64,000 nt of DNA, from the IMG/VR virus record IMGVR_UViG_3300037067_012088, positions 127,388 to 191,387 of that record; one strand, given 5' to 3'. Positions within the stretch are counted from its first letter, which is position 1, and every line of letters begins with the position of its first letter. The stretch is from a virus (taxonomy: Duplodnaviria; Caudoviricetes). Positions 4,028 through 42,250 of the stretch are shown in pieces. The notes under the pieces are model-generated. The model was given only the letters and a program-made list of their open reading frames with translations, was not told the origin of the DNA and searched no databases. The position numbers and the translations under genes are program-made.

Positions 4028-4242
4028 GTCGCCACCCCCTCATCGCGCCGCTTCATGTGCACCAATCTCTCATCGAGCGCCGTGTTGATGCGCCCTTTGA
4101 TCTTGGCGATCTTGGCATCTCGTTCGGGACCGGTGGCGAGCTTTTCGGCGTCAAGAAGAGCCTCGCGGTTCAAATCGAGGATCTGGTCGATCTGCTCAAT
4201 GGGTGTGGGCGTAGACTTGGGGAAGGGGAGCGGGACAGTCAT
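4024..4242 (-). CDS. hypothetical protein
   Basis: 72-aa helical ORF, ATGA-coupled. Confidence 0.55.
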   Translation of the reverse strand: MTVPLPFPKSTPTPIEQIDQILDLNREALLDAEKLATGPERDAKIAKIKGRINTALDERLVHMKRRDEGVAT

Positions 4243-4766: not shown

Positions 4767-5150
4767 TCATGGCGAGTGGACGGGACAGGGATGACCCTCA
4801 TAGCCCGAACGCGTGCAGGTGCAAGGGTCGCGGGGCCTACGGGGACTGGGCGACTCAAGCTCGTTGATGTGGTGGATCAACTCGGCACACTCCTGTTTCG
4901 CCGCGTTGAACAGGTTGTTCTGCACCTTAACCTCATCTCTGGTGTCGTATCGTCTCAGCACGGGCTCTATCACCGCCGCGACATCAGCTAACTGCCTACG
5001 ATACGACACTCCCGCCTTCCTAATCGATTCGGTCGCGTCGGGATTGTGGGGATGAGCCGCCACATGCTTCTCACAGTCTAGTGCGCGCGCGAGAATCCCG
5101 GGATTGAGGGTCGCGGCAAGAGAGAGCGCATCTTCGTGGGCGGTGGTCAT
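4767..5150 (-). CDS. hypothetical protein with C-terminal Cys/His cluster
   Basis: CTC...CPVH motif. Confidence 0.5.
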   Translation of the reverse strand: MTTAHEDALSLAATLNPGILARALDCEKHVAAHPHNPDATESIRKAGVSYRRQLADVAAVIEPVLRRYDTRDEVKVQNNLFNAAKQECAELIHHINELESPSPRRPRDPCTCTRSGYEGHPCPVHSP

Positions 5151-6762: not shown

Positions 6763-7689
6763 CTAGGTCATCTCGCCATATCTCATGCGCGGGACATAGT
6801 TGTCCTCAAACGCGCCTCGGTAATCCTTGGGGTCGAGCCCAAGTTCGCGCAAGAGCCGGCTTATCTCGCGCCACGCCGTGCGCAGGTTGCGGAAAGACTC
6901 GAATTGAGGGAGAGTGAGAGTGAAGGGGACAGTCTCGGCGTTGGTGGCCTTGGCTACGTGGTGGTTGACCCACGCGACAAGGAATCTCACGTTGCGGGCG
7001 ATGTCCTTGGCTGAGTCCCCCATGTCAAAGAACCTGTATTCGTAGGTCGGGTAAGCCGGCTTGTAGCGATAGGAGTAGCGGGCCGCGATGGAGCAACTGG
7101 TGCGCCCCCACTCGTAGGCCTTCTTCTTGAGCTTGGCGCGAGAATGGGTCTTCAGATCCATGGCTCCAAAGGTCACCTGTGAATTGGTCCCGGAATCAAA
7201 CCACTCAGCGAACAGCCACCGGATGTAAGGTCGGTTTGCGAAGTCCGTATACAGGTTTCTCTCGAATAGATACAAGCGCGCCAAATAGAGATGGTCGTCG
7301 GGAAAGAGATCGGCGATACCGATGTGGGCGTGACCTCCACCAGAGGGGTGATGAATCCCATTGCGTCGGATGCGCGGCAGCAGCTTAAGCTTCTTCGCCC
7401 GGTCGAACACCTGCTGGATGAGGGCGACGAACATAGGGTCCTCCCACTGGTAATCCCATGTCGGCTTGTCGCAATTGACCACCTCAATGATCCACGCAGG
7501 GTCGGGCTCAAGACGGAACACGTCCACCTTGACACCAAGGTCGATATCGAACGCTTGAATCCGCTTGCGCAAAGGACGGAGCGCACGAAAGAGGGCGTCG
7601 GCGGCGCGTTGGGCTTCCTTCTTACAGGAGAACTCCTTGGGGCCGCTGGGCCGGTCGGGGATGAAGGTCAGCTCTAGACCTAGACGCAT
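6763..7689 (-). CDS. putative amidoligase (COOH-NH2 ligase fold)
   Basis: LGLELT, IIEVV, GGGHAHIG and TYEYRFF motifs. Confidence 0.7.
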   Translation of the reverse strand: MRLGLELTFIPDRPSGPKEFSCKKEAQRAADALFRALRPLRKRIQAFDIDLGVKVDVFRLEPDPAWIIEVVNCDKPTWDYQWEDPMFVALIQQVFDRAKKLKLLPRIRRNGIHHPSGGGHAHIGIADLFPDDHLYLARLYLFERNLYTDFANRPYIRWLFAEWFDSGTNSQVTFGAMDLKTHSRAKLKKKAYEWGRTSCSIAARYSYRYKPAYPTYEYRFFDMGDSAKDIARNVRFLVAWVNHHVAKATNAETVPFTLTLPQFESFRNLRTAWREISRLLRELGLDPKDYRGAFEDNYVPRMRYGEMT

Positions 7690-38546: not shown

Positions 38547-38640
38547 TGGACGAGAGAGCGAGATTTGAACTCGCGAACCGGGATGAACCGATTTCTTGCT
38601 TAGCATGCAAGCGCTTTAGGCCAGACTCAGCCATCTCTCG
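38547..38640 (-). tRNA. tRNA-Ser(GCU)
   Basis: Cloverleaf; CUUGC-AU GCU AA-GCAAG; long variable arm; CCA. Confidence 0.85.
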
Positions 38641-38730
38641 GGCGGATAGCAGAGGGCACGATCCCCAGCCGATTTAACGACCCCTTGTTTTCAAGACAAG
38701 TCCCCGCCCATCGCAGGTGCTTTACTATCC
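38641..38730 (-). tRNA. tRNA-Ser(UGA)
   Basis: CUUGU-CU UGA AA-ACAAG; long variable arm. Confidence 0.8.
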
Positions 38731-38734
38731 AAAG

Positions 38735-38814
38735 TGGTGCGAACGAGAGGGGATGATCCTCCATGTGTCCAATTACCCTTTCGCCGGTTTAGGAAACCGA
38801 GGGGATACGTCCGC
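38735..38814 (-). tRNA. non-canonical tRNA-Arg(CCU) with no D-arm before the anticodon arm
   Basis: 7-bp acceptor + ACCA; UCGGU-UU CCU AA-ACCGG; AUCCC/GGGU helix encloses the anticodon arm. Confidence 0.65.
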
Positions 38815-38815
38815 G

Positions 38816-38891
38816 TGGTAGGAGTGGCCGGGTTCTCGCCGACCCTAAGGCGTCCGAAGCGCCCTGTGCGAATACAATACACTACACTCCC
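38816..38891 (-). tRNA. tRNA-Arg(UCG)
   Basis: GGGCG-CU UCG GA-CGCCU; CCA. Confidence 0.8.
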
Positions 38892-38897
38892 ATAAAG

Positions 38898-38971
38898 CAC
38901 CCGTCCTCAGGTTCGAACTGAGACTAATGAGAGGTAGAAGCTCTCGTGACTTTCCAATTGCCGAGACGGGT
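38898..38971 (-). tRNA. tRNA-Arg(UCU)
   Basis: GAGAG-CU UCU AC-CUCUC; canonical T-loop; no CCA. Confidence 0.85.
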
Positions 38972-38975
38972 AAAG

Positions 38976-39051
38976 TGGCGCATGTGGAGGAAGTCGAATC
39001 CTCAACCTCTCGATTCGTAATCGAGCGCTCATCCAGTTGAGCTTCACACGC
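38976..39051 (-). tRNA. tRNA-Arg(ACG)
   Basis: CUCGA-UU ACG AA-UCGAG; CCA. Confidence 0.9.
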
Positions 39052-39055
39052 AAAT

Positions 39056-39130
39056 TGGGGTAAGTAGCGAATTCTGCCATCGCGTTCTGCGCGCCACAAG
39101 CGCATGTCTTCCTTCTAGACGATACCTACC
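39056..39130 (-). tRNA. tRNA-His(GUG)
   Basis: G-1:C73; UGCGC-UU GUG GC-GCGCA; CCA. Confidence 0.85.
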
Positions 39131-39138
39131 ATGAAATG

Positions 39139-39221
39139 AGCAGTAAGAGGGACTCGCACCCCCGATGAGCTTTCGCTGCGTGCTTACAAAACACGTCCTG
39201 TCGCTTCTGAGGCATTACTGC
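39139..39221 (-). tRNA. tRNA-Thr(UGU) with long variable arm
   Basis: CGUGU-UU UGU AA-GCACG; extra arm AGC-GAAA-GCU. Confidence 0.75.
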
Positions 39222-39229
39222 ATGAAATG

Positions 39230-39298
39230 AGCCAACTGCCGGTGCGGCCCCGGCTTCCTACTCATTACGGGTGAGTGGGGATTGCTGAATCAGTTGGC
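39230..39298 (-). tRNA. tRNA-Thr(CGU) with truncated D-arm
   Basis: ACUCA-CC CGU AA-UGAGU. Confidence 0.7.
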
Positions 39299-39299
39299 A

Positions 39300-39390
39300 T
39301 GGTCGTCCCGCTCGGTGCTGCCCCGAGTCACGGCCCAAATCTAGGACACAAGGAGGTATAAGCTCCTCAGGGAGGCTGCTCCACGAGACG
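39300..39390 (-). tRNA. non-canonical tRNA-Ile(UAU)
   Basis: GAGGAG-CU UAU AC-CUCCUU; mini D hairpin; long extra arm; ACCA. Confidence 0.65.
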
Positions 39391-39396
39391 ACAAAA

Positions 39397-39487
39397 TGGT
39401 GCAAGAGGTGGGCCACGATCCCACACGGGGCTTTCGCCACCCAACGATTTTGAATCGTCGCTGTATGCCAATTCCAAGCACTCTTGC
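39397..39487 (-). tRNA. tRNA-Leu(CAA)
   Basis: GACGA-UU CAA AA-UCGUU; long variable arm; CCA. Confidence 0.85.
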
Positions 39488-39493
39488 GTAAAA

Positions 39494-39578
39494 TCGACGC
39501 GGTGGGGTATGCTCCCACAATCCCTCTCGGGCCAACAGGTTTAAGCTGCTGCTGTATTCTGGTTCCAAGCACGCGTCG
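39494..39578 (-). tRNA. tRNA-Leu(UAA)
   Basis: AGCAG-CU UAA AC-CUGUU; long variable arm. Confidence 0.8.
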
Positions 39579-39583
39579 GAAAT

Positions 39584-39658
39584 TGGCGGCCCCACGGAGA
39601 GTTTCGCTCGCGATGTCCAACTTGAGAGGTTGGCAGACTAATCTTATCTGATGGGGCC
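39584..39658 (-). tRNA. tRNA-Glu(CUC)
   Basis: CCAAC-CU CUC AA-GUUGG; irregular T-stem; CCA. Confidence 0.75.
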
Positions 39659-39660
39659 AT

Positions 39661-39744
39661 TGCGTTCGGTGGGCAACGATCCCACATGAGCTTTCGCCCC
39701 TTGGTTTCTAAGACCAAGCTGTAAGCCAATTCCAGCACGAACGC
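39661..39744 (-). tRNA. tRNA-Leu(UAG)
   Basis: UUGGU-CU UAG AA-ACCAA; long variable arm. Confidence 0.85.
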
Positions 39745-39750
39745 GTAAAA

Positions 39751-39833
39751 TGGTGGGAGCGGCGAGCCACGACCTCGCAATCCTTGCGGCGGCAGACTCT
39801 CGATCTGCTGGGTATACATTCCCCCACGCTCCC
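39751..39833 (-). tRNA. tRNA-Leu(GAG)
   Basis: GCAGA-UC GAG AG-UCUGC (C33); CCA. Confidence 0.8.
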
Positions 39834-39835
39834 CT

Positions 39836-39908
39836 AGCCTGAGACGGGGCTCGAACCCGTTACCCTCCCCTTACCAAGGGGTAATTCAACCACATGAACT
39901 TCACAGGC
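39836..39908 (-). tRNA. tRNA-Thr(GGU)
   Basis: CCCC-UU GGU AA-GGGG; canonical T-loop. Confidence 0.8.
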
Positions 39909-39912
39909 AAAA

Positions 39913-39985
39913 TGGAAGTAGATCCCGGTGCTGCCCCGGGCTAGTGGTCCTTATGAGAGACTACTGATCGGCTGGATCATCTACC
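39913..39985 (-). tRNA. tRNA-Met/Ile2(CAU) with short D-arm
   Basis: GUCU-CU CAU AA-GGAC; CCA. Confidence 0.7.
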
Positions 39986-39986
39986 G

Positions 39987-40061
39987 TGGTGGTCCCGTAG
40001 GAAATCGCATCCTCCTCATCCGATTAAGAGTCGGAGTCCTCGCTATCTAGGAGTCGAGACC
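39987..40061 (-). tRNA. tRNA-Lys(CUU)
   Basis: UCCGA-CU CUU AA-UCGGA; CCA. Confidence 0.8.
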
Positions 40062-40068
40062 ATAAAAT

Positions 40069-40140
40069 CTGCCCCACCCCGATTTGCACGAGGACCTAAC
40101 ACTTTCAGAGAGTGTCGGACTGCTATTATCCCATGAGGCA
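40069..40140 (-). tRNA. tRNA-Gln(CUG)
   Basis: ACACU-CU CUG AA-AGUGU; U1-A72. Confidence 0.8.
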
Positions 40141-40149
40141 TCAACAAAG

Positions 40150-40234
40150 CCGGGGCGACACGGTTCGAACGTGCAAAGTCTTGCGACCGGTAGGGTCAAA
40201 GCCTACTGCGTTTATCCAGTTCCGCCACACCCCA
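40150..40234 (-). tRNA. tRNA-Gln(UUG) with long variable arm
   Basis: GUAGG-CU UUG AC-CCUAC; extra arm GGUC-GCAA-GACU; Leu/Ser-like D-arm. Confidence 0.8.
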
Positions 40235-40242
40235 AAAATCGC

Positions 40243-40890
40243 TCAACACGGCACCGGCGTCCATCCCTCAAACACGACCCGCACCACGCCGCCCGGTGAA
40301 CTCGCGGGTCTCTGCACATTGCAGATGGGTGAATCATTGGCATACTCAGGATGGGTTCCTACGCACTCGGGGGGCGAAACTGACGCCGTGCAGTTGTCGC
40401 ATCCATATGGATAGACGCCGACCAAATCCGTGTTCTCATATCGCGTGCTGTTGCGTATCTTCTTCACCGCAATCACGCCGCCGTTTGCGGTCCAGTCGTC
40501 CGAACTCAAATCAAACCCGAGATAAGCATTCGCACCGCAAACGCAGCTGATGTCTACCGTCTCCTGTCCGCCTGATTGGAATCCGTTGTTGAGGATAAAC
40601 TCGGCCAGCGCGACGCCCTCGGGCCAATCGGGACACGGGCAATTCAGAGGAGGAGTGCCAAAGGAGAGGTTACCGTTGAAGCCCAGTCCCGCAGGAGCGT
40701 CAATCGAGACCGTCGTGGTCGCCGGTAAAGTGAAGTTGCCCATGAGCGGGTAGAGCTTGTTGATGACGATGCCGTCACTGACTGTGATATCGGATACGTC
40801 TTGCACGCAACCGGGCGTGGCGCCAAGAGTGATGTAAGCGAGAACGGGGGAAGCGGAGTTGTTGCGGAGAGCGAGTTTGGTGGTAGGCAT
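40243..40890 (-). CDS. thaumatin-like (PR-5 fold) Cys-rich protein
   Basis: GVALAEFILNN....ETVDISCVCGAN resembles the thaumatin TLAEFTL...YDVSLVDG.N signature; about 10 Cys. Confidence 0.6.
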   Translation of the reverse strand: MPTTKLALRNNSASPVLAYITLGATPGCVQDVSDITVSDGIVINKLYPLMGNFTLPATTTVSIDAPAGLGFNGNLSFGTPPLNCPCPDWPEGVALAEFILNNGFQSGGQETVDISCVCGANAYLGFDLSSDDWTANGGVIAVKKIRNSTRYENTDLVGVYPYGCDNCTASVSPPECVGTHPEYANDSPICNVQRPASSPGGVVRVVFEGWTPVPC

Positions 40891-40895
40891 AGTAG

Positions 40896-40906
40896 AGGAT
40901 ACACCG
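40896..40906 (-). promoter_or_regulatory. class II promoter-like motif CGGTGTATCCT
   Basis: 5 nt upstream of the ATG; shared GGTGTAT core. Confidence 0.45.
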
Positions 40907-40957
40907 GGAAGAAGCCCCCTTCCTCTCTGTAACACAAATCGTTGACACTCAACAAAA

Positions 40958-41033
40958 TGGCTGCCGCCCACAGGATCGAACTGTGCTCATCGGATTAACA
41001 GTCCGACCGGGTCTCCCTGACTCGCTGACGGCA
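40958..41033 (-). tRNA. tRNA-Asn(GUU)
   Basis: UCGGA-CU GUU AA-UCCGA; CCA. Confidence 0.85.
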
Positions 41034-41039
41034 ATAAAG

Positions 41040-41117
41040 TGGTGGAAAAGGCTGGCTTCGATCCAGCGACCTTCGTGGTGTAGGCACGTTGCTCTAACCT
41101 GACTGAGCTACTTTTCC
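41040..41117 (-). tRNA. tRNA-Val(UAC)
   Basis: CGUG-CC UAC AC-CACG; CCA. Confidence 0.85.
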
Positions 41118-41118
41118 A

Positions 41119-41193
41119 TGGCGGTGCTACGGAGTATCGCGCTCCGATCACGAGATCGACAATCTCGCGCTCTCCTACTTGAGCTATAGCACC
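41119..41193 (-). tRNA. tRNA-Asp(GUC)
   Basis: CGAGA-UU GUC GA-UCUCG; CCA. Confidence 0.85.
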
Positions 41194-41199
41194 AAAGTG

Positions 41200-41281
41200 T
41201 CCGAGCGACACGACTTGCACGTGCAGAGGTTGCCCACTGAGTCCCAAACTCAGCCCGCTCCTATTTACGGTATACGCTCGG
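41200..41281 (-). tRNA. tRNA-Pro(UGG) with enlarged variable arm
   Basis: CUGAG-UU UGG GA-CUCAG; C1-G72, A73. Confidence 0.75.
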
Positions 41282-41299
41282 ATAGCGCTAACTAAACTG

Positions 41300-41370
41300 A
41301 TGCAGAGGTGGGATTTGCACGCCACTAACGGCGACGGGTATGAGCCGCGCTTGGTTCTAACCTCCCTGCG
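41300..41370 (-). tRNA. initiator-type tRNA-Met(CAU) with minimal D-arm
   Basis: C1:A72 mismatch; GCGG-CU CAU AC-CCGU. Confidence 0.7.
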
Positions 41371-41375
41371 TAAAA

Positions 41376-41454
41376 TGGCCCTGACTCCCGTGGCTTGCAC
41401 CGGGCACCTCCGAGTCTTCAGCTCGGCGCTCTACATCTAATGAGCTAAGTCAGG
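41376..41454 (-). tRNA. tRNA-Phe(GAA)
   Basis: CCGAG-CU GAA GA-CUCGG; CCA. Confidence 0.8.
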
Positions 41455-41455
41455 A

Positions 41456-41596
41456 TGAAGAGGCCTTTCACCTCATGGGTCGCTTTGGGCGACTCTGCCT
41501 CTCTGGGATGGTGACTCCGTGTCAGTCATTCATCTTGGGAGGACCTTGCTTGAGATATCCCACTCGTTTGACACGACGGTCAGGAGATATCTTAAA
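41456..41596 (-). ncRNA. unassigned structured RNA between tRNA-Trp and tRNA-Phe
   Basis: Several nested hairpins in a 141-nt spacer; most other spacers are under 10 nt. Confidence 0.45.
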
Positions 41597-41671
41597 TGGC
41601 CCCGGGTGCTGGGAGCGCGCCAGCCCGACAACTTTTGGAGAGTCGTCCGAACACTAGATCGTCTACCCGGG
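41597..41671 (-). tRNA. tRNA-Trp(CCA)
   Basis: CGACU-CU CCA AA-AGUUG; G73; CCA. Confidence 0.8.
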
Positions 41672-41676
41672 AAAAT

Positions 41677-41747
41677 TCCTCCTATCTGGTGCTGCCCCAG
41701 AGTCTCACGCCTATCAAGCGCGCTATCTACTGTTGATATATAGGAGG
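41677..41747 (-). tRNA. tRNA-Ile(GAU)
   Basis: CGCGC-UU GAU AG-GCGUG; acceptor CCUCCUA/UAGGAGG. Confidence 0.8.
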
Positions 41748-41753
41748 GTAAAA

Positions 41754-41842
41754 TGGGGGAGCCCGCTGGAATCGCGCCAGTTGCTAGCTTCTCGTCTTTG
41801 GGTTAGCGGTGAGGTTACAACTCACTGACGAGGACGGTCTCC
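41754..41842 (-). tRNA. non-canonical tRNA-Tyr(GUA) with no D-arm before the anticodon arm
   Basis: GUGAG-UU GUA AC-CUCAC enclosed by a CUCGUC/GACGAG helix; T-arm; CCA. Confidence 0.65.
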
Positions 41843-41844
41843 AT

Positions 41845-41918
41845 TGCACCATGAGAGACGTGCGCTCTCCCCTCCGAGGTGGAAGCTCGGCATGCTCGCT
41901 ATTGGACACTAATGGTGC
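41845..41918 (-). tRNA. tRNA-Gly(UCC)
   Basis: CCGAG-CU UCC AC-CUCGG. Confidence 0.8.
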
Positions 41919-41924
41919 GAAAAT

Positions 41925-41996
41925 TGGAGGATGCCGTAATCGAAACGGCGACTGTCGGGTGCAGGCCGACCGTGTTACCACTAGCACCAATCCCCC
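41925..41996 (-). tRNA. tRNA-Ala(UGC)
   Basis: G3:U70; GUCGG-CC UGC AC-CCGAC. Confidence 0.85.
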
Positions 41997-42003
41997 TGAA
42001 AAA

Positions 42004-42079
42004 TGGACACGCGTGTGGAACTCGAATCCACGACCTAGTGCTTTGCAGACACCGCTCTTAGCCGCTTGAGTAACGCGTG
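42004..42079 (-). tRNA. tRNA-Cys(GCA)
   Basis: GGUGU-CU GCA AA-GCACU; U73; CCA. Confidence 0.9.
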
Positions 42080-42088
42080 AGGTGAAAA

Positions 42089-42164
42089 TGGTGGTCCCAG
42101 CGGAAGTCGAATCCGCAACTCGCGACTTAAAAGGACGCTACTCTACCAATTGAGTTATGAGACC
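42089..42164 (-). tRNA. tRNA-Lys(UUU)
   Basis: Canonical D and T arms; CU UUU AA loop; CCA. Confidence 0.9.
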
Positions 42165-42171
42165 GTAAAAT

Positions 42172-42243
42172 CGCCCGCACGGAGAATCGAACTCCGGTTT
42201 CAACCTTGAAAGGGTTTTGTCACTACCACTAGACGATGCGGGC
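42172..42243 (-). tRNA. tRNA-Glu(UUC)
   Basis: AACC-CU UUC AA-GGUU; canonical T-loop. Confidence 0.9.
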
Positions 42244-42250
42244 ACAAATA

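What the first reader, a model, noticed from the sequence alone, without database searches (positions are those of the whole stretch)
38735..41842. Topologically rearranged tRNAs (Arg-CCU, Tyr-GUA; related Ile-UAU) without a normal D-arm
Seen: 38735-38814 and 41754-41842 have acceptor stems with CCA, 7-nt anticodon loops and T-arms, but no D hairpin. Instead a helix (AUCCC/GGGU; CUCGUC/GACGAG) encloses the anticodon arm, and a D-loop-like segment (AAUUGG; AAGCUAGC) lies 3' of it. 39300-39390 likewise has an AGAUUUGG-containing arm after the anticodon. The rearranged Tyr gene is the only Tyr tRNA in an otherwise complete set, which argues for function. Inference: an alternative way to build the L-shape, possibly evading tRNA-targeting nucleases.
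Basis: partly seen in the sequence, partly recalled or inferred. Interest (0 to 1): 0.75.

Follow-up and report, generated by a model that had tools for sequence, protein, structure and literature searches.

The report
Rewired arginine and tyrosine phage tRNAs
Two genes in this phage's 36-gene tRNA cluster are real, conserved tRNAs (Arg-CCU, Tyr-GUA) whose D arm is not a hairpin but is split and paired around the anticodon arm; gene finders miss this design, I found it in no paper, and this scan has met both designs before in other phages.

Summary
The window is the end of a 191-kb phage record. A tRNA array on the minus strand (42244..38547) covers all 20 amino acids.

- **Arg-CCU (38814..38735).** It belongs to a widespread phage family of exactly 77 nt. 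A 3-bp helix (columns 11-13 with 37-39) encloses the anticodon arm. It is 100% paired in 46 sequences, with double changes at all three pairs. A D-loop-like stretch with an invariant GG follows and runs straight into the T stem. ARAGORN finds none of 47 copies.
- **Tyr-GUA (41842..41754).** It is the only Tyr gene. A 6-bp helix encloses the anticodon arm, and its 3' strand lies in the loop of a 4-bp variable-arm stem, giving a pseudoknot. One relative of the same geometry changes 5 of 6 and 2 of 4 pairs on both sides. Phage crAss001 carries an unannotated gene of the same design.
- **Ile-UAU (39390..39300).** This one is different: a cloverleaf with a 4-bp D stem, a tetraloop and a long variable arm.

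Charging, expression and nuclease evasion are untested. This scan found both rewired designs before on other DNA. I found no paper describing them.

The parts
38735..38814 (-). tRNA-Arg(CCU) gene, rewired core, 77 nt plus encoded CCA (38737-38735)
   Evidence: Covariance model R1 scores it 84.9 bits, while ordinary tRNAs score 36 bits or less. It is the first row of alignments A1 and A4.
38802..38804 (-). Arg helix X, 5' strand (columns 11-13, CCC)
   Evidence: Pairs with 38776-38778. 100% paired in 46 sequences, with double changes at all 3 pairs.
38776..38778 (-). Arg helix X, 3' strand (columns 37-39, GGG), preceded by the invariant GAAA (38779-38782)
38785..38799 (-). Arg anticodon arm (4-bp stem, 7-nt loop; anticodon CCU at 38793-38791)
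   Evidence: All 4 stem pairs show double changes across the family.
38763..38775 (-). Arg D-loop-like stretch (columns 40-52) with invariant GG (columns 45-46) and A at column 47. It runs directly into the T stem.
   Evidence: Invariant columns. Columns 42-52 are A-U in 42 and G-C in 4 sequences. Column 47 is A in all 44 Arg members of A4 and U in both Ile members.
38746..38762 (-). Arg T arm. The loop is AUCAUCC instead of the family's UUCGAAU.
   Evidence: Alignment A4. Only this window and its relative G001 carry this loop. Positions 54 and 58 are swapped, while U55 and C56 are kept.
41754..41842 (-). tRNA-Tyr(GUA) gene, pseudoknotted, 86 nt plus encoded CCA (41756-41754). It is the only Tyr gene of the array.
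41827..41832 (-). Tyr helix X, 5' strand (CUCGUC)
   Evidence: Pairs with 41791-41796. 5 of 6 pairs are changed on both sides in L212.
41791..41796 (-). Tyr helix X, 3' strand (GACGAG), lying inside the loop of the variable arm
41809..41825 (-). Tyr anticodon arm (5 bp; anticodon GUA at 41818-41816)
   Evidence: 3 compensatory pairs against L177, with the anticodon kept.
41783..41807 (-). Tyr variable arm: stem GCUA (41807-41804) with UAGC (41786-41783), and a 17-nt loop that holds the 3' strand of helix X
   Evidence: 100% paired in 3 sequences, with 2 double changes and 1 single change. My scan did not demand this helix.
41766..41780 (-). Tyr T arm (4-bp stem, loop CGCGAUU), next to an 8-bp acceptor stem (41842-41835 with 41765-41758)
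   Evidence: The G8-C pair is kept in all 3 sequences. A fifth T-stem pair would be A.C or C.C.
39300..39390 (-). tRNA-Ile(UAU): a cloverleaf with a 4-bp D stem plus CAGC tetraloop (39382-39371), a 6-bp anticodon stem, a variable arm (39347-39333) and the T loop GGCAGCA. Its topology is not rearranged.
   Evidence: 12 of 26 pairs are compensatory against L177:2892-2979.

Best explanation
Both genes encode working tRNAs that keep the outer shape of a tRNA but wire the core differently.

In Arg-CCU, the strand after U8-A9-U10 pairs over 3 bp with a strand that lies after the anticodon arm. This helix X stands in for the D stem and stacks on the anticodon stem. The chain then runs through a D-loop-like stretch. 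Its GG docks on U55-C56 of the T loop. Its purine at column 42 pairs with the pyrimidine at column 52 like the 15-48 Levitt pair. Its A at column 47 presents the A20 identity mark to ArgRS. The chain then enters the T stem directly, without a variable loop.

In Tyr-GUA the same trick is combined with the long variable arm of bacterial tRNA-Tyr. The 3' strand of a 6-bp helix X sits in the loop of the variable arm, so the RNA is a pseudoknot. The acceptor and T stems are 8 and 4 bp.

Shown here: the helices, their conservation and their covariation. Inferred: the L-shape, charging by host ArgRS and TyrRS, and decoding of AGG and UAY codons. Guessed: that the design is kept because it escapes host enzymes that recognise or cut ordinary tRNAs.
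For: Arg family:
- About 45 members turned up in IMG/VR from one pattern scan, all exactly 77 nt without indels.
- In alignment A4 (46 distinct sequences), 98.8% of cells are paired and all 20 pairs show double changes. No shuffle out of 500 reaches this, and slid registers give 46% at most.
- Model R1 separates members (60-99 bits) from ordinary tRNAs (36 bits or less).
- Anticodons are Arg only (UCU, CCU, ACG, UCG) with A at column 47. The exceptions are two Ile members (UAU, GAU), which have U there. A20, C35 and A/G73 define arginine identity (PMC9976931).
- Discriminators are G in 27, A in 16 and U in 3.
- The window copy differs from its relative G001 by two compensatory acceptor pairs.

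Tyr:
- The L177 copy is identical except for 3 compensatory anticodon-stem pairs, 2 anticodon-loop bases, 2 T-loop bases and the discriminator.
- It is the best-kept gene between the two arrays, at 88% identity against 49-78% for 25 other orthologous pairs.
- L212 has the same anticodon and the same segment lengths apart from one extra base before the T stem, an ACCA end, and sits at the head of an array.
- The two-sequence model R2 scores L212 at 35.6 bits (E 5e-7); the next best hit scores 17.6.
- In L212, helix X has 5 of 6 and the variable-arm stem 2 of 4 pairs changed on both sides.
- crAss001 positions 4141-4235 hold an unannotated Tyr gene with the same pseudoknot plan.

Codons: the phage uses AGG (156) and Tyr codons (1386) in 122 long ORFs.
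Against: - There is no evidence of transcription, processing or charging.
- The window's Arg copy has an unusual T loop.
- The window's Tyr copy has C73 where the three relatives have A73, no GG after helix X, and a non-standard T loop. It could be a weaker or specialised copy.
- L212 was found by a script that required helix X, so that pairing is not independent evidence. Only its other features and its variable-arm stem are.
- Alignment A9 was fitted to the model's structure.
- Only three sequences share the exact Tyr geometry.
- Single-sequence folding z-scores are unremarkable (-0.6 and -1.1).
Confidence: 0.8

Rival explanations
1. They are decaying tRNA pseudogenes, and the enclosing helices are chance complementarity.
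For: Many genes of this array have degenerate D and T loops, and ARAGORN finds them only in mitochondrial mode. A helix of 6 or more pairs arises in 2.5% of shuffled Tyr linkers.
Against: The Arg design is fixed in length and covaries across 46 sequences from unrelated phages. Tyr is the most conserved gene between two diverged arrays, and its stems change by compensation.
Confidence: 0.03
2. They are tRNA-like RNAs that are not used in translation. They could be decoys that soak up anticodon nucleases or other tRNA-binding host factors, or regulatory RNAs.
For: The anticodon loop is the best-kept feature, and the non-standard core could block normal use. In Tyr, the anticodon arm alone has diverged between the window and L177 while everything else is frozen.
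Against: Acceptor stems, discriminators, encoded CCA, the A20-like base that tracks Arg against Ile and the kept variable arm of Tyr are features needed for charging, not for a decoy. In the window and in L177, the rewired Tyr is the only Tyr gene of a set that otherwise covers the amino acids.
Confidence: 0.1
3. They are truly D-armless, flexible tRNAs like mitochondrial tRNA-Ser(AGY). Helix X does not form in the working molecule, and the long 3' stretch is just an enlarged variable region, which is how the Rfam tRNA model aligns it.
For: The Rfam tRNA model aligns a family member by deleting the D arm and inserting 18 nt in the variable region. E. coli translation tolerates an engineered D-armless tRNA (PMC11551756).
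Against: Helix X pairs change on both sides while staying paired. The GG, the 42-52 pair and the GAAA are invariant or covary, which a loose linker would not require.
Confidence: 0.05
4. The genes are processed (cut, rejoined or permuted) into ordinary cloverleaf tRNAs.
For: Permuted tRNA genes matured through circular intermediates are known in the red alga Cyanidioschyzon merolae (my own knowledge, not checked here).
Against: The order of segments is not a circular permutation of the cloverleaf. An internal block would have to be moved, and no such pathway is known. Acceptor 5' and 3' strands and the CCA are already at the ends.
Confidence: 0.02

Closest known systems
Canonical bacterial and phage tRNA-Arg and class II tRNA-Tyr (Rfam RF00005)
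   Same: 7-8 bp acceptor stem, discriminator, CCA, anticodon arm, T arm, GG...UC elbow bases, the A20-like base (Arg) and the long variable arm (Tyr). They sit in tRNA arrays at the place where related phages carry ordinary versions: G001 has a cloverleaf Tyr and L177 a cloverleaf Arg-CCU.
   Different: There is no D hairpin. The D-stem substitute is made of one strand before and one strand after the anticodon arm. In Tyr this gives a pseudoknot. In the window, Rfam gives no hit to either gene at E<=10.
Mitochondrial D-armless tRNAs, e.g. mt-tRNA-Ser(AGY) (reviewed in PMC7609411)
   Same: No D hairpin, yet taken to be functional adaptors.
   Different: The mitochondrial tRNAs are shortened and flexible, with a short connector. 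These phage tRNAs are longer than normal (77 and 86 nt before the CCA), keep D-loop-like bases and rebuild the helix. They are also not organellar.
allo-tRNAs and (8/4) tRNA-Ser and tRNA-His of bacteria and phages (Mukai et al., PMC5389517)
   Same: The window-type Tyr has an 8-bp acceptor stem and a 4-bp T stem plus a long variable arm. The Ile-UAU has a D stem with a tetraloop, a 6-bp anticodon stem and a long variable arm.
   Different: allo-tRNAs are nested cloverleaves with a D hairpin. The Tyr has none and is pseudoknotted. The Ile-UAU has a 7/5 acceptor branch. The crAss001 Tyr is 7/5.
Engineered D-armless 'mini HisT' used by evolved E. coli (PMC11551756)
   Same: It shows that bacterial synthetase, EF-Tu and ribosome can use a tRNA without a D hairpin.
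   Different: It is artificial, and its D arm is simply deleted. That paper states that all known bacterial tRNAs are cloverleaves.

Membership tests
Canonical tRNA (Rfam RF00005) | Score at or above the gathering cut-off (29 bits) | tested here: not met
   No hit at E<=10 for 38735-38814 or 41754-41842. Some family members with a standard T loop reach 29-33 bits, but only by deleting the D arm.
Canonical tRNA (Rfam RF00005) | D arm as a local hairpin between the acceptor and anticodon arms | tested here: not met
   Only 8 nt (Arg) or 9-10 nt (Tyr) separate the acceptor from the anticodon stem.
Canonical tRNA (Rfam RF00005) | Acceptor stem, anticodon arm and T arm with covariation | tested here: met
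Canonical tRNA (Rfam RF00005) | Aminoacylation and use by the ribosome | not testable with these tools
Rewired phage tRNA-Arg/Ile family (model R1, built here) | 77 nt, with helix 11-13/37-39 around a 4-bp anticodon stem, GAAA before the 3' strand, and a UA..GG..CA stretch leading into the T stem | tested here: met
   The window gene scores 84.9 bits over the full length with no indels.
Rewired phage tRNA-Arg/Ile family (model R1, built here) | Standard T loop UUCGAAU | tested here: not met
   The window and G001 have AUCAU(C/U)C. U55 and C56 are kept, and positions 54 and 58 are swapped.
Pseudoknotted phage tRNA-Tyr class | Anticodon GUA, with a helix formed between the 5' linker and the loop of the variable arm | tested here: met
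   The same plan occurs in crAss001 4141-4235.
Pseudoknotted phage tRNA-Tyr class | A73 discriminator and GG after the 3' strand of helix X | tested here: not met
   The window has C73 and AAGC. L177 has A73 and AAGC. L212 has A73 and UGGC. crAss001 has A73 and AAUGGA.
Mitochondrial-type D-armless tRNA | Short connector in place of the D arm, with no substitute helix | tested here: not met
   A covarying substitute helix is present.
(8/4) tRNAs and allo-tRNAs (PMC5389517) | 12-bp acceptor branch split 8/4 | tested here: met
   Tyr only: the G8-C pair is kept in 3 of 3 sequences, and a fifth T-stem pair would be a mismatch. Arg and Ile-UAU are 7/5.
(8/4) tRNAs and allo-tRNAs (PMC5389517) | Nested cloverleaf with a long D stem and tetraloop | tested here: not met
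   Tyr has no D hairpin. The Ile-UAU does have a D stem with a tetraloop, but on a 7/5 branch.

The most novel reading that the evidence does not exclude
Phages have evolved at least two non-cloverleaf tRNA architectures: a 7/5 Arg/Ile type with a 3-bp split D stem, and a pseudoknotted Tyr type. Both still fold into an L-shape and are charged by host synthetases. They are kept because the altered core makes them poor substrates for host tRNA-directed defence nucleases or tRNA quality control. If so, they are natural 'hardened' tRNAs and ready-made scaffolds for orthogonal translation.
Probability: 0.25. Interest if true: 0.92.

Novelty: new variant of a known kind. Interest (0 to 1): 0.8.

Why it matters
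The cloverleaf is treated as universal outside mitochondria. A 2024 paper states that all known bacterial tRNAs adopt it (PMC11551756).

These conserved, covarying phage genes suggest that the same outer shape can be built with a different strand order, and in one case with a pseudoknot.

Practically, tRNA finders miss or mislabel these genes. Three examples from cultured phages:
- an unannotated Tyr gene in crAss001;
- a 'tRNA-Phe' in Streptomyces phage Mildred21 that is really Arg-UCG;
- an unannotated gap in Microbacterium phage Zooman.

Phage tRNA repertoires and codon-supply analyses are therefore incomplete.

If these tRNAs are charged, they show which core contacts ArgRS, TyrRS, EF-Tu and the ribosome really need. 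They would also offer natural scaffolds for engineered tRNAs and a test case for the idea that phage tRNAs are shaped by host tRNA-cutting defences.

Tried and rejected
- **Scans that found no true Tyr relative.** Three pattern scans of IMG/VR for Tyr relatives returned nothing or only chance hits. A first Arg pattern was too loose and gave mostly chance hits.
- **blastn searches.** The window's Arg and Tyr genes found nothing in cultured phages. L212's Tyr matched only a T arm. An Arg family member found nothing in E. coli genomes.
- **Model R3 on whole records.** A search of 15 whole records or genomes found no further Tyr of the window's geometry. R3 also did not pick out the crAss001 gene (11.4 bits); I read that gene by eye and checked the pairings by script.
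- **Neighbouring proteins as anchors.** They gave only one close relative (G001) and two distant ones. The 704-aa protein has no match in the genome that holds L212.
- **MAFFT** misaligned the three Tyr genes, so I used a model-guided alignment instead.
- **Register-shifted Arg helix.** The pairing from the energy-minimum fold was rejected on covariation.
- **Pairs 10-40 and 15-31 of Arg** are not supported.
- **My first Tyr model** was a nested long hairpin with a 12-nt bulge.


Full report
**Setting**

The window is the last 64 kb of a 191,387-bp IMG/VR virus record, linear and 92% complete. GC content is about 56% and most genes are short and on the minus strand.

On the minus strand, 42244..38547 holds a dense tRNA array.
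- ARAGORN in standard mode genes.
- Its mitochondrial mode adds 12 more in the gaps.
- Reading the remaining gaps by hand gives about 36 genes covering all 20 amino acids. Most end in an encoded CCA followed by a run of T.

Neither ARAGORN nor Rfam (E<=10) reports anything at 38735-38814 or 41754-41842.

**Arg-CCU (38814..38735)**

Read 5' to 3', the gene has:
- a 7-bp acceptor stem;
- UAU, then CCC, then CU;
- a 4-bp anticodon stem with the loop UUCCUAA;
- GC and GAAA, then GGG;
- a 13-nt stretch that contains UUGGA;
- a 5-bp T stem and the 3' acceptor strand;
- discriminator A and CCA.

A related phage, G001 (190,671 bp), carries the same gene at 87% identity with two compensatory changes in the acceptor stem.

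*Finding the family.*
- An 18-nt pattern from the anticodon arm found five more viral contigs, one of them with a UCU paralogue next to it.
- A second pattern, which left the middle base of the 3' strand and the whole 5' strand free, found about 45 true members.
- All are exactly 77 nt up to the discriminator, with no insertion or deletion.
- ARAGORN calls none of 47 copies.
- The Rfam tRNA model reaches 29-33 bits on some members, but only by deleting the D arm and inserting 18 nt in the variable region.

*Covariation.* On 46 distinct sequences (A4), the proposed structure is paired in 98.8% of cells, and all 20 pairs have changes on both sides. None of 500 shuffles reaches this, and slid registers give 46% at most.

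Helix X (columns 11-13 with 37-39) is paired in every sequence:

| Pair | C-G | U-A | A-U | G-C |
|---|---|---|---|---|
| 11-39 | 43 | 1 | 2 | - |
| 12-38 | 30 | 13 | - | 3 |
| 13-37 | 44 | - | 1 | 1 |

Streptomyces phage Mildred21 adds a CCG/CGG version.

*Elbow and identity bases.*
- Columns 42 and 52 covary: A-U in 42 sequences and G-C in 4. This is how the 15-48 Levitt pair behaves.
- G45 and G46, and the U and C at T-loop positions 55-56, are invariant.
- Column 47 is A in all 44 Arg members of A4 and U in the two members that carry Ile anticodons (L141 UAU, L168 GAU).
- A20, C35 and A/G73 define arginine identity (PMC9976931). So the stretch after helix X behaves as a displaced D loop.

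*Strand topology.* The 5' strand of helix X runs on into the 5' strand of the anticodon stem. It therefore takes the place of D-stem residues 22-25. The 3' strand takes the place of 10-13 and is followed by the 'D loop', which then enters the T stem (inference).

*Distribution.*
- Model R1 separates members (60-99 bits) from ordinary tRNAs (36 bits or less). It finds exactly one member in the window, at 84.9 bits.
- The window and G001 copies differ from the rest in the T loop. Positions 54 and 58 are swapped, while U55 and C56 are kept.
- The design occurs in cultured phages of Vibrio, Streptomyces and Microbacterium and in a crAss-like phage, almost always unannotated.
- Among 185,579 species-representative prokaryote genomes, the same pattern gave only 5 true hits, all in metagenome-assembled genomes.

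**Tyr-GUA (41842..41754)**

The gene has an 8-bp acceptor stem with one A.G mismatch. After it come:
- UC, then CUCGUC, then A;
- a 5-bp anticodon arm with anticodon GUA;
- 12 nt, then GACGAG, then 10 nt;
- a 4-bp T stem with the loop CGCGAUU;
- discriminator C and CCA.

With the acceptor, anticodon and T arms enforced, the 6-bp helix is the best completion (-25.9 against -22.3 kcal/mol). Shuffled linkers give such a helix in 2.5% of trials.

*L177.* A metagenome scan found L177, a 3.5-kb contig with an array in the same gene order.
- Its Tyr gene is identical to the window's except for three compensatory pairs in the anticodon stem, two anticodon-loop bases, two T-loop bases and the discriminator (A instead of C).
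- It is the most conserved of 26 orthologous pairs, at 88% against 49-78%.

*L212.* My own architecture scan over all fetched loci found a third gene, L212:7539-7628. It heads a tRNA array on a 198-kb contig of a Planctomycetaceae metagenome-assembled genome.
- It has the same anticodon, an ACCA end and a standard T loop. Its segment lengths are the same, apart from one extra base before the T stem.
- Its helix X differs at 5 of 6 pairs on both sides.
- The scan demanded that helix, so the pairing itself is not independent evidence. The coincidence of the other features is.
- The two-sequence model R2 also scores it at 35.6 bits (E 5e-7), against 17.6 for the next best hit.

*The pseudoknot.* Earlier notes of this scan describe a 'pseudoknotted phage tyrosine tRNA' in other genomes. 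Testing that idea here gave the following.
- A 4-bp stem, GCUA with UAGC (columns 36-39 with 57-60), is paired in all three sequences, with two double changes and one single change. My scan had not asked for it.
- Its 17-nt loop holds the 3' strand of helix X. The RNA is therefore a pseudoknot: the variable arm of a class II tRNA-Tyr is kept, and half of the D stem sits in its loop.
- I then read Bacteroides phage crAss001 (MH675552). No Tyr gene is annotated in its array.
- Positions 4141-4235 hold a gene with a 7-bp acceptor stem, UA, a 5-bp helix X to the variable-arm loop, a GUA anticodon arm, a 4-bp variable-arm stem, AAUGGA after helix X, a standard T arm and A73.

The window's Tyr is thus a member of a broader class. 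Its own sub-type (8/4 acceptor branch, 6-bp helix) is rare in what I could search.

**Ile-UAU (39390..39300)**

This gene is not rearranged.
- It has a 4-bp D stem with a CAGC tetraloop, a 6-bp anticodon stem, a variable arm (4 bp with a 7-nt loop) and the T loop GGCAGCA.
- Against L177:2892-2979, 12 of 26 pairs change on both sides.
- It resembles allo-tRNAs in the D tetraloop, long anticodon stem and variable arm (PMC5389517), but its acceptor branch is 7/5.

**What is shown and what is not**

- Shown: the genes, their helices and strong purifying and compensatory evolution.
- Inferred: an L-shaped fold, charging by host synthetases and decoding. The phage uses AGG 156 times and Tyr codons 1386 times in 122 long ORFs.

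**Known or new**

- The 2020 review of non-canonical tRNAs lists D-armless tRNAs only in mitochondria and does not mention phages.
- A 2024 paper states that all known bacterial tRNAs are cloverleaves.
- Four full-text searches found no description of either design.
- This scan has reported both designs before on other DNA. Those notes are not independent evidence, and the tests above are my own.

Noticed in passing
window 38547-42244 (minus strand): By my reading, about two thirds of the ~36 array genes have non-standard T loops (GGCAGCA in Ile-GAU, Met and Ile-UAU, with GGCCGCA in Thr-CGU; CGCGAUU/CGCGCUC; UGCAAGY) and D loops without GG. Among all fetched loci, GGCAGCA and CGCGAUA T loops occur almost only in this phage lineage (window, L177, G001).
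   Followed up: partly
window 41455-41596 (minus strand): A 142-nt stretch between Trp and Phe has no assignable tRNA. It starts with a hairpin closed by AGAUAUC/GAUAUCU.
   Followed up: no
L141:3566-3642 and L168:4482-4558: Two genes have the Arg-type rewired architecture but Ile anticodons (UAU, GAU) and U instead of A at column 47. The design is therefore not limited to arginine.
   Followed up: partly
L173:1495-1570 (Streptomyces phage Mildred21, MF155946 91367-91442): The gene is annotated tRNA-Phe(gaa). It is a rewired-family member whose anticodon loop reads CUUCGAA, that is Arg(UCG). The annotation is a register error.
   Followed up: partly
L174:1501-1576 (Microbacterium phage Zooman, OK040793): An unannotated gap between two annotated tRNA-Arg genes holds a rewired-family member with anticodon ACG.
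   Followed up: partly
L222:4141-4235 (Bacteroides phage crAss001, MH675552): An unannotated pseudoknotted tRNA-Tyr(GUA) lies between tRNA-Lys and tRNA-Phe. The record annotates no Tyr tRNA in the stretch examined (positions 1-50,000), which contains this array.
   Followed up: yes
window 41754-41842 compared with L177:1320-1408: The two Tyr genes are identical outside the anticodon arm, two T-loop bases and the discriminator, while the neighbouring tRNAs are only 49-78% identical. This looks like either extreme constraint on the core or replacement of the anticodon arm alone.
   Followed up: partly
window 40243-40890 (minus strand): A 215-aa cysteine-rich ORF interrupts the array and has no Pfam match. 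Its 70%-identical homologue in G001 lies just outside that phage's array.
   Followed up: partly
L002 (G001:44500-54500), minus strand: Several 70-170-nt gaps in G001's array end in CCA followed by a run of T but contain no recognisable tRNA. They may be further unusual CCA-ended RNAs.
   Followed up: no
L212 (G002:C1, 198-kb contig of a Planctomycetaceae MAG): The same contig carries both a rewired Arg-UCU (4893-4969) and the pseudoknotted Tyr (7539-7628), as the window does. The contig may be a binned phage.
   Followed up: no
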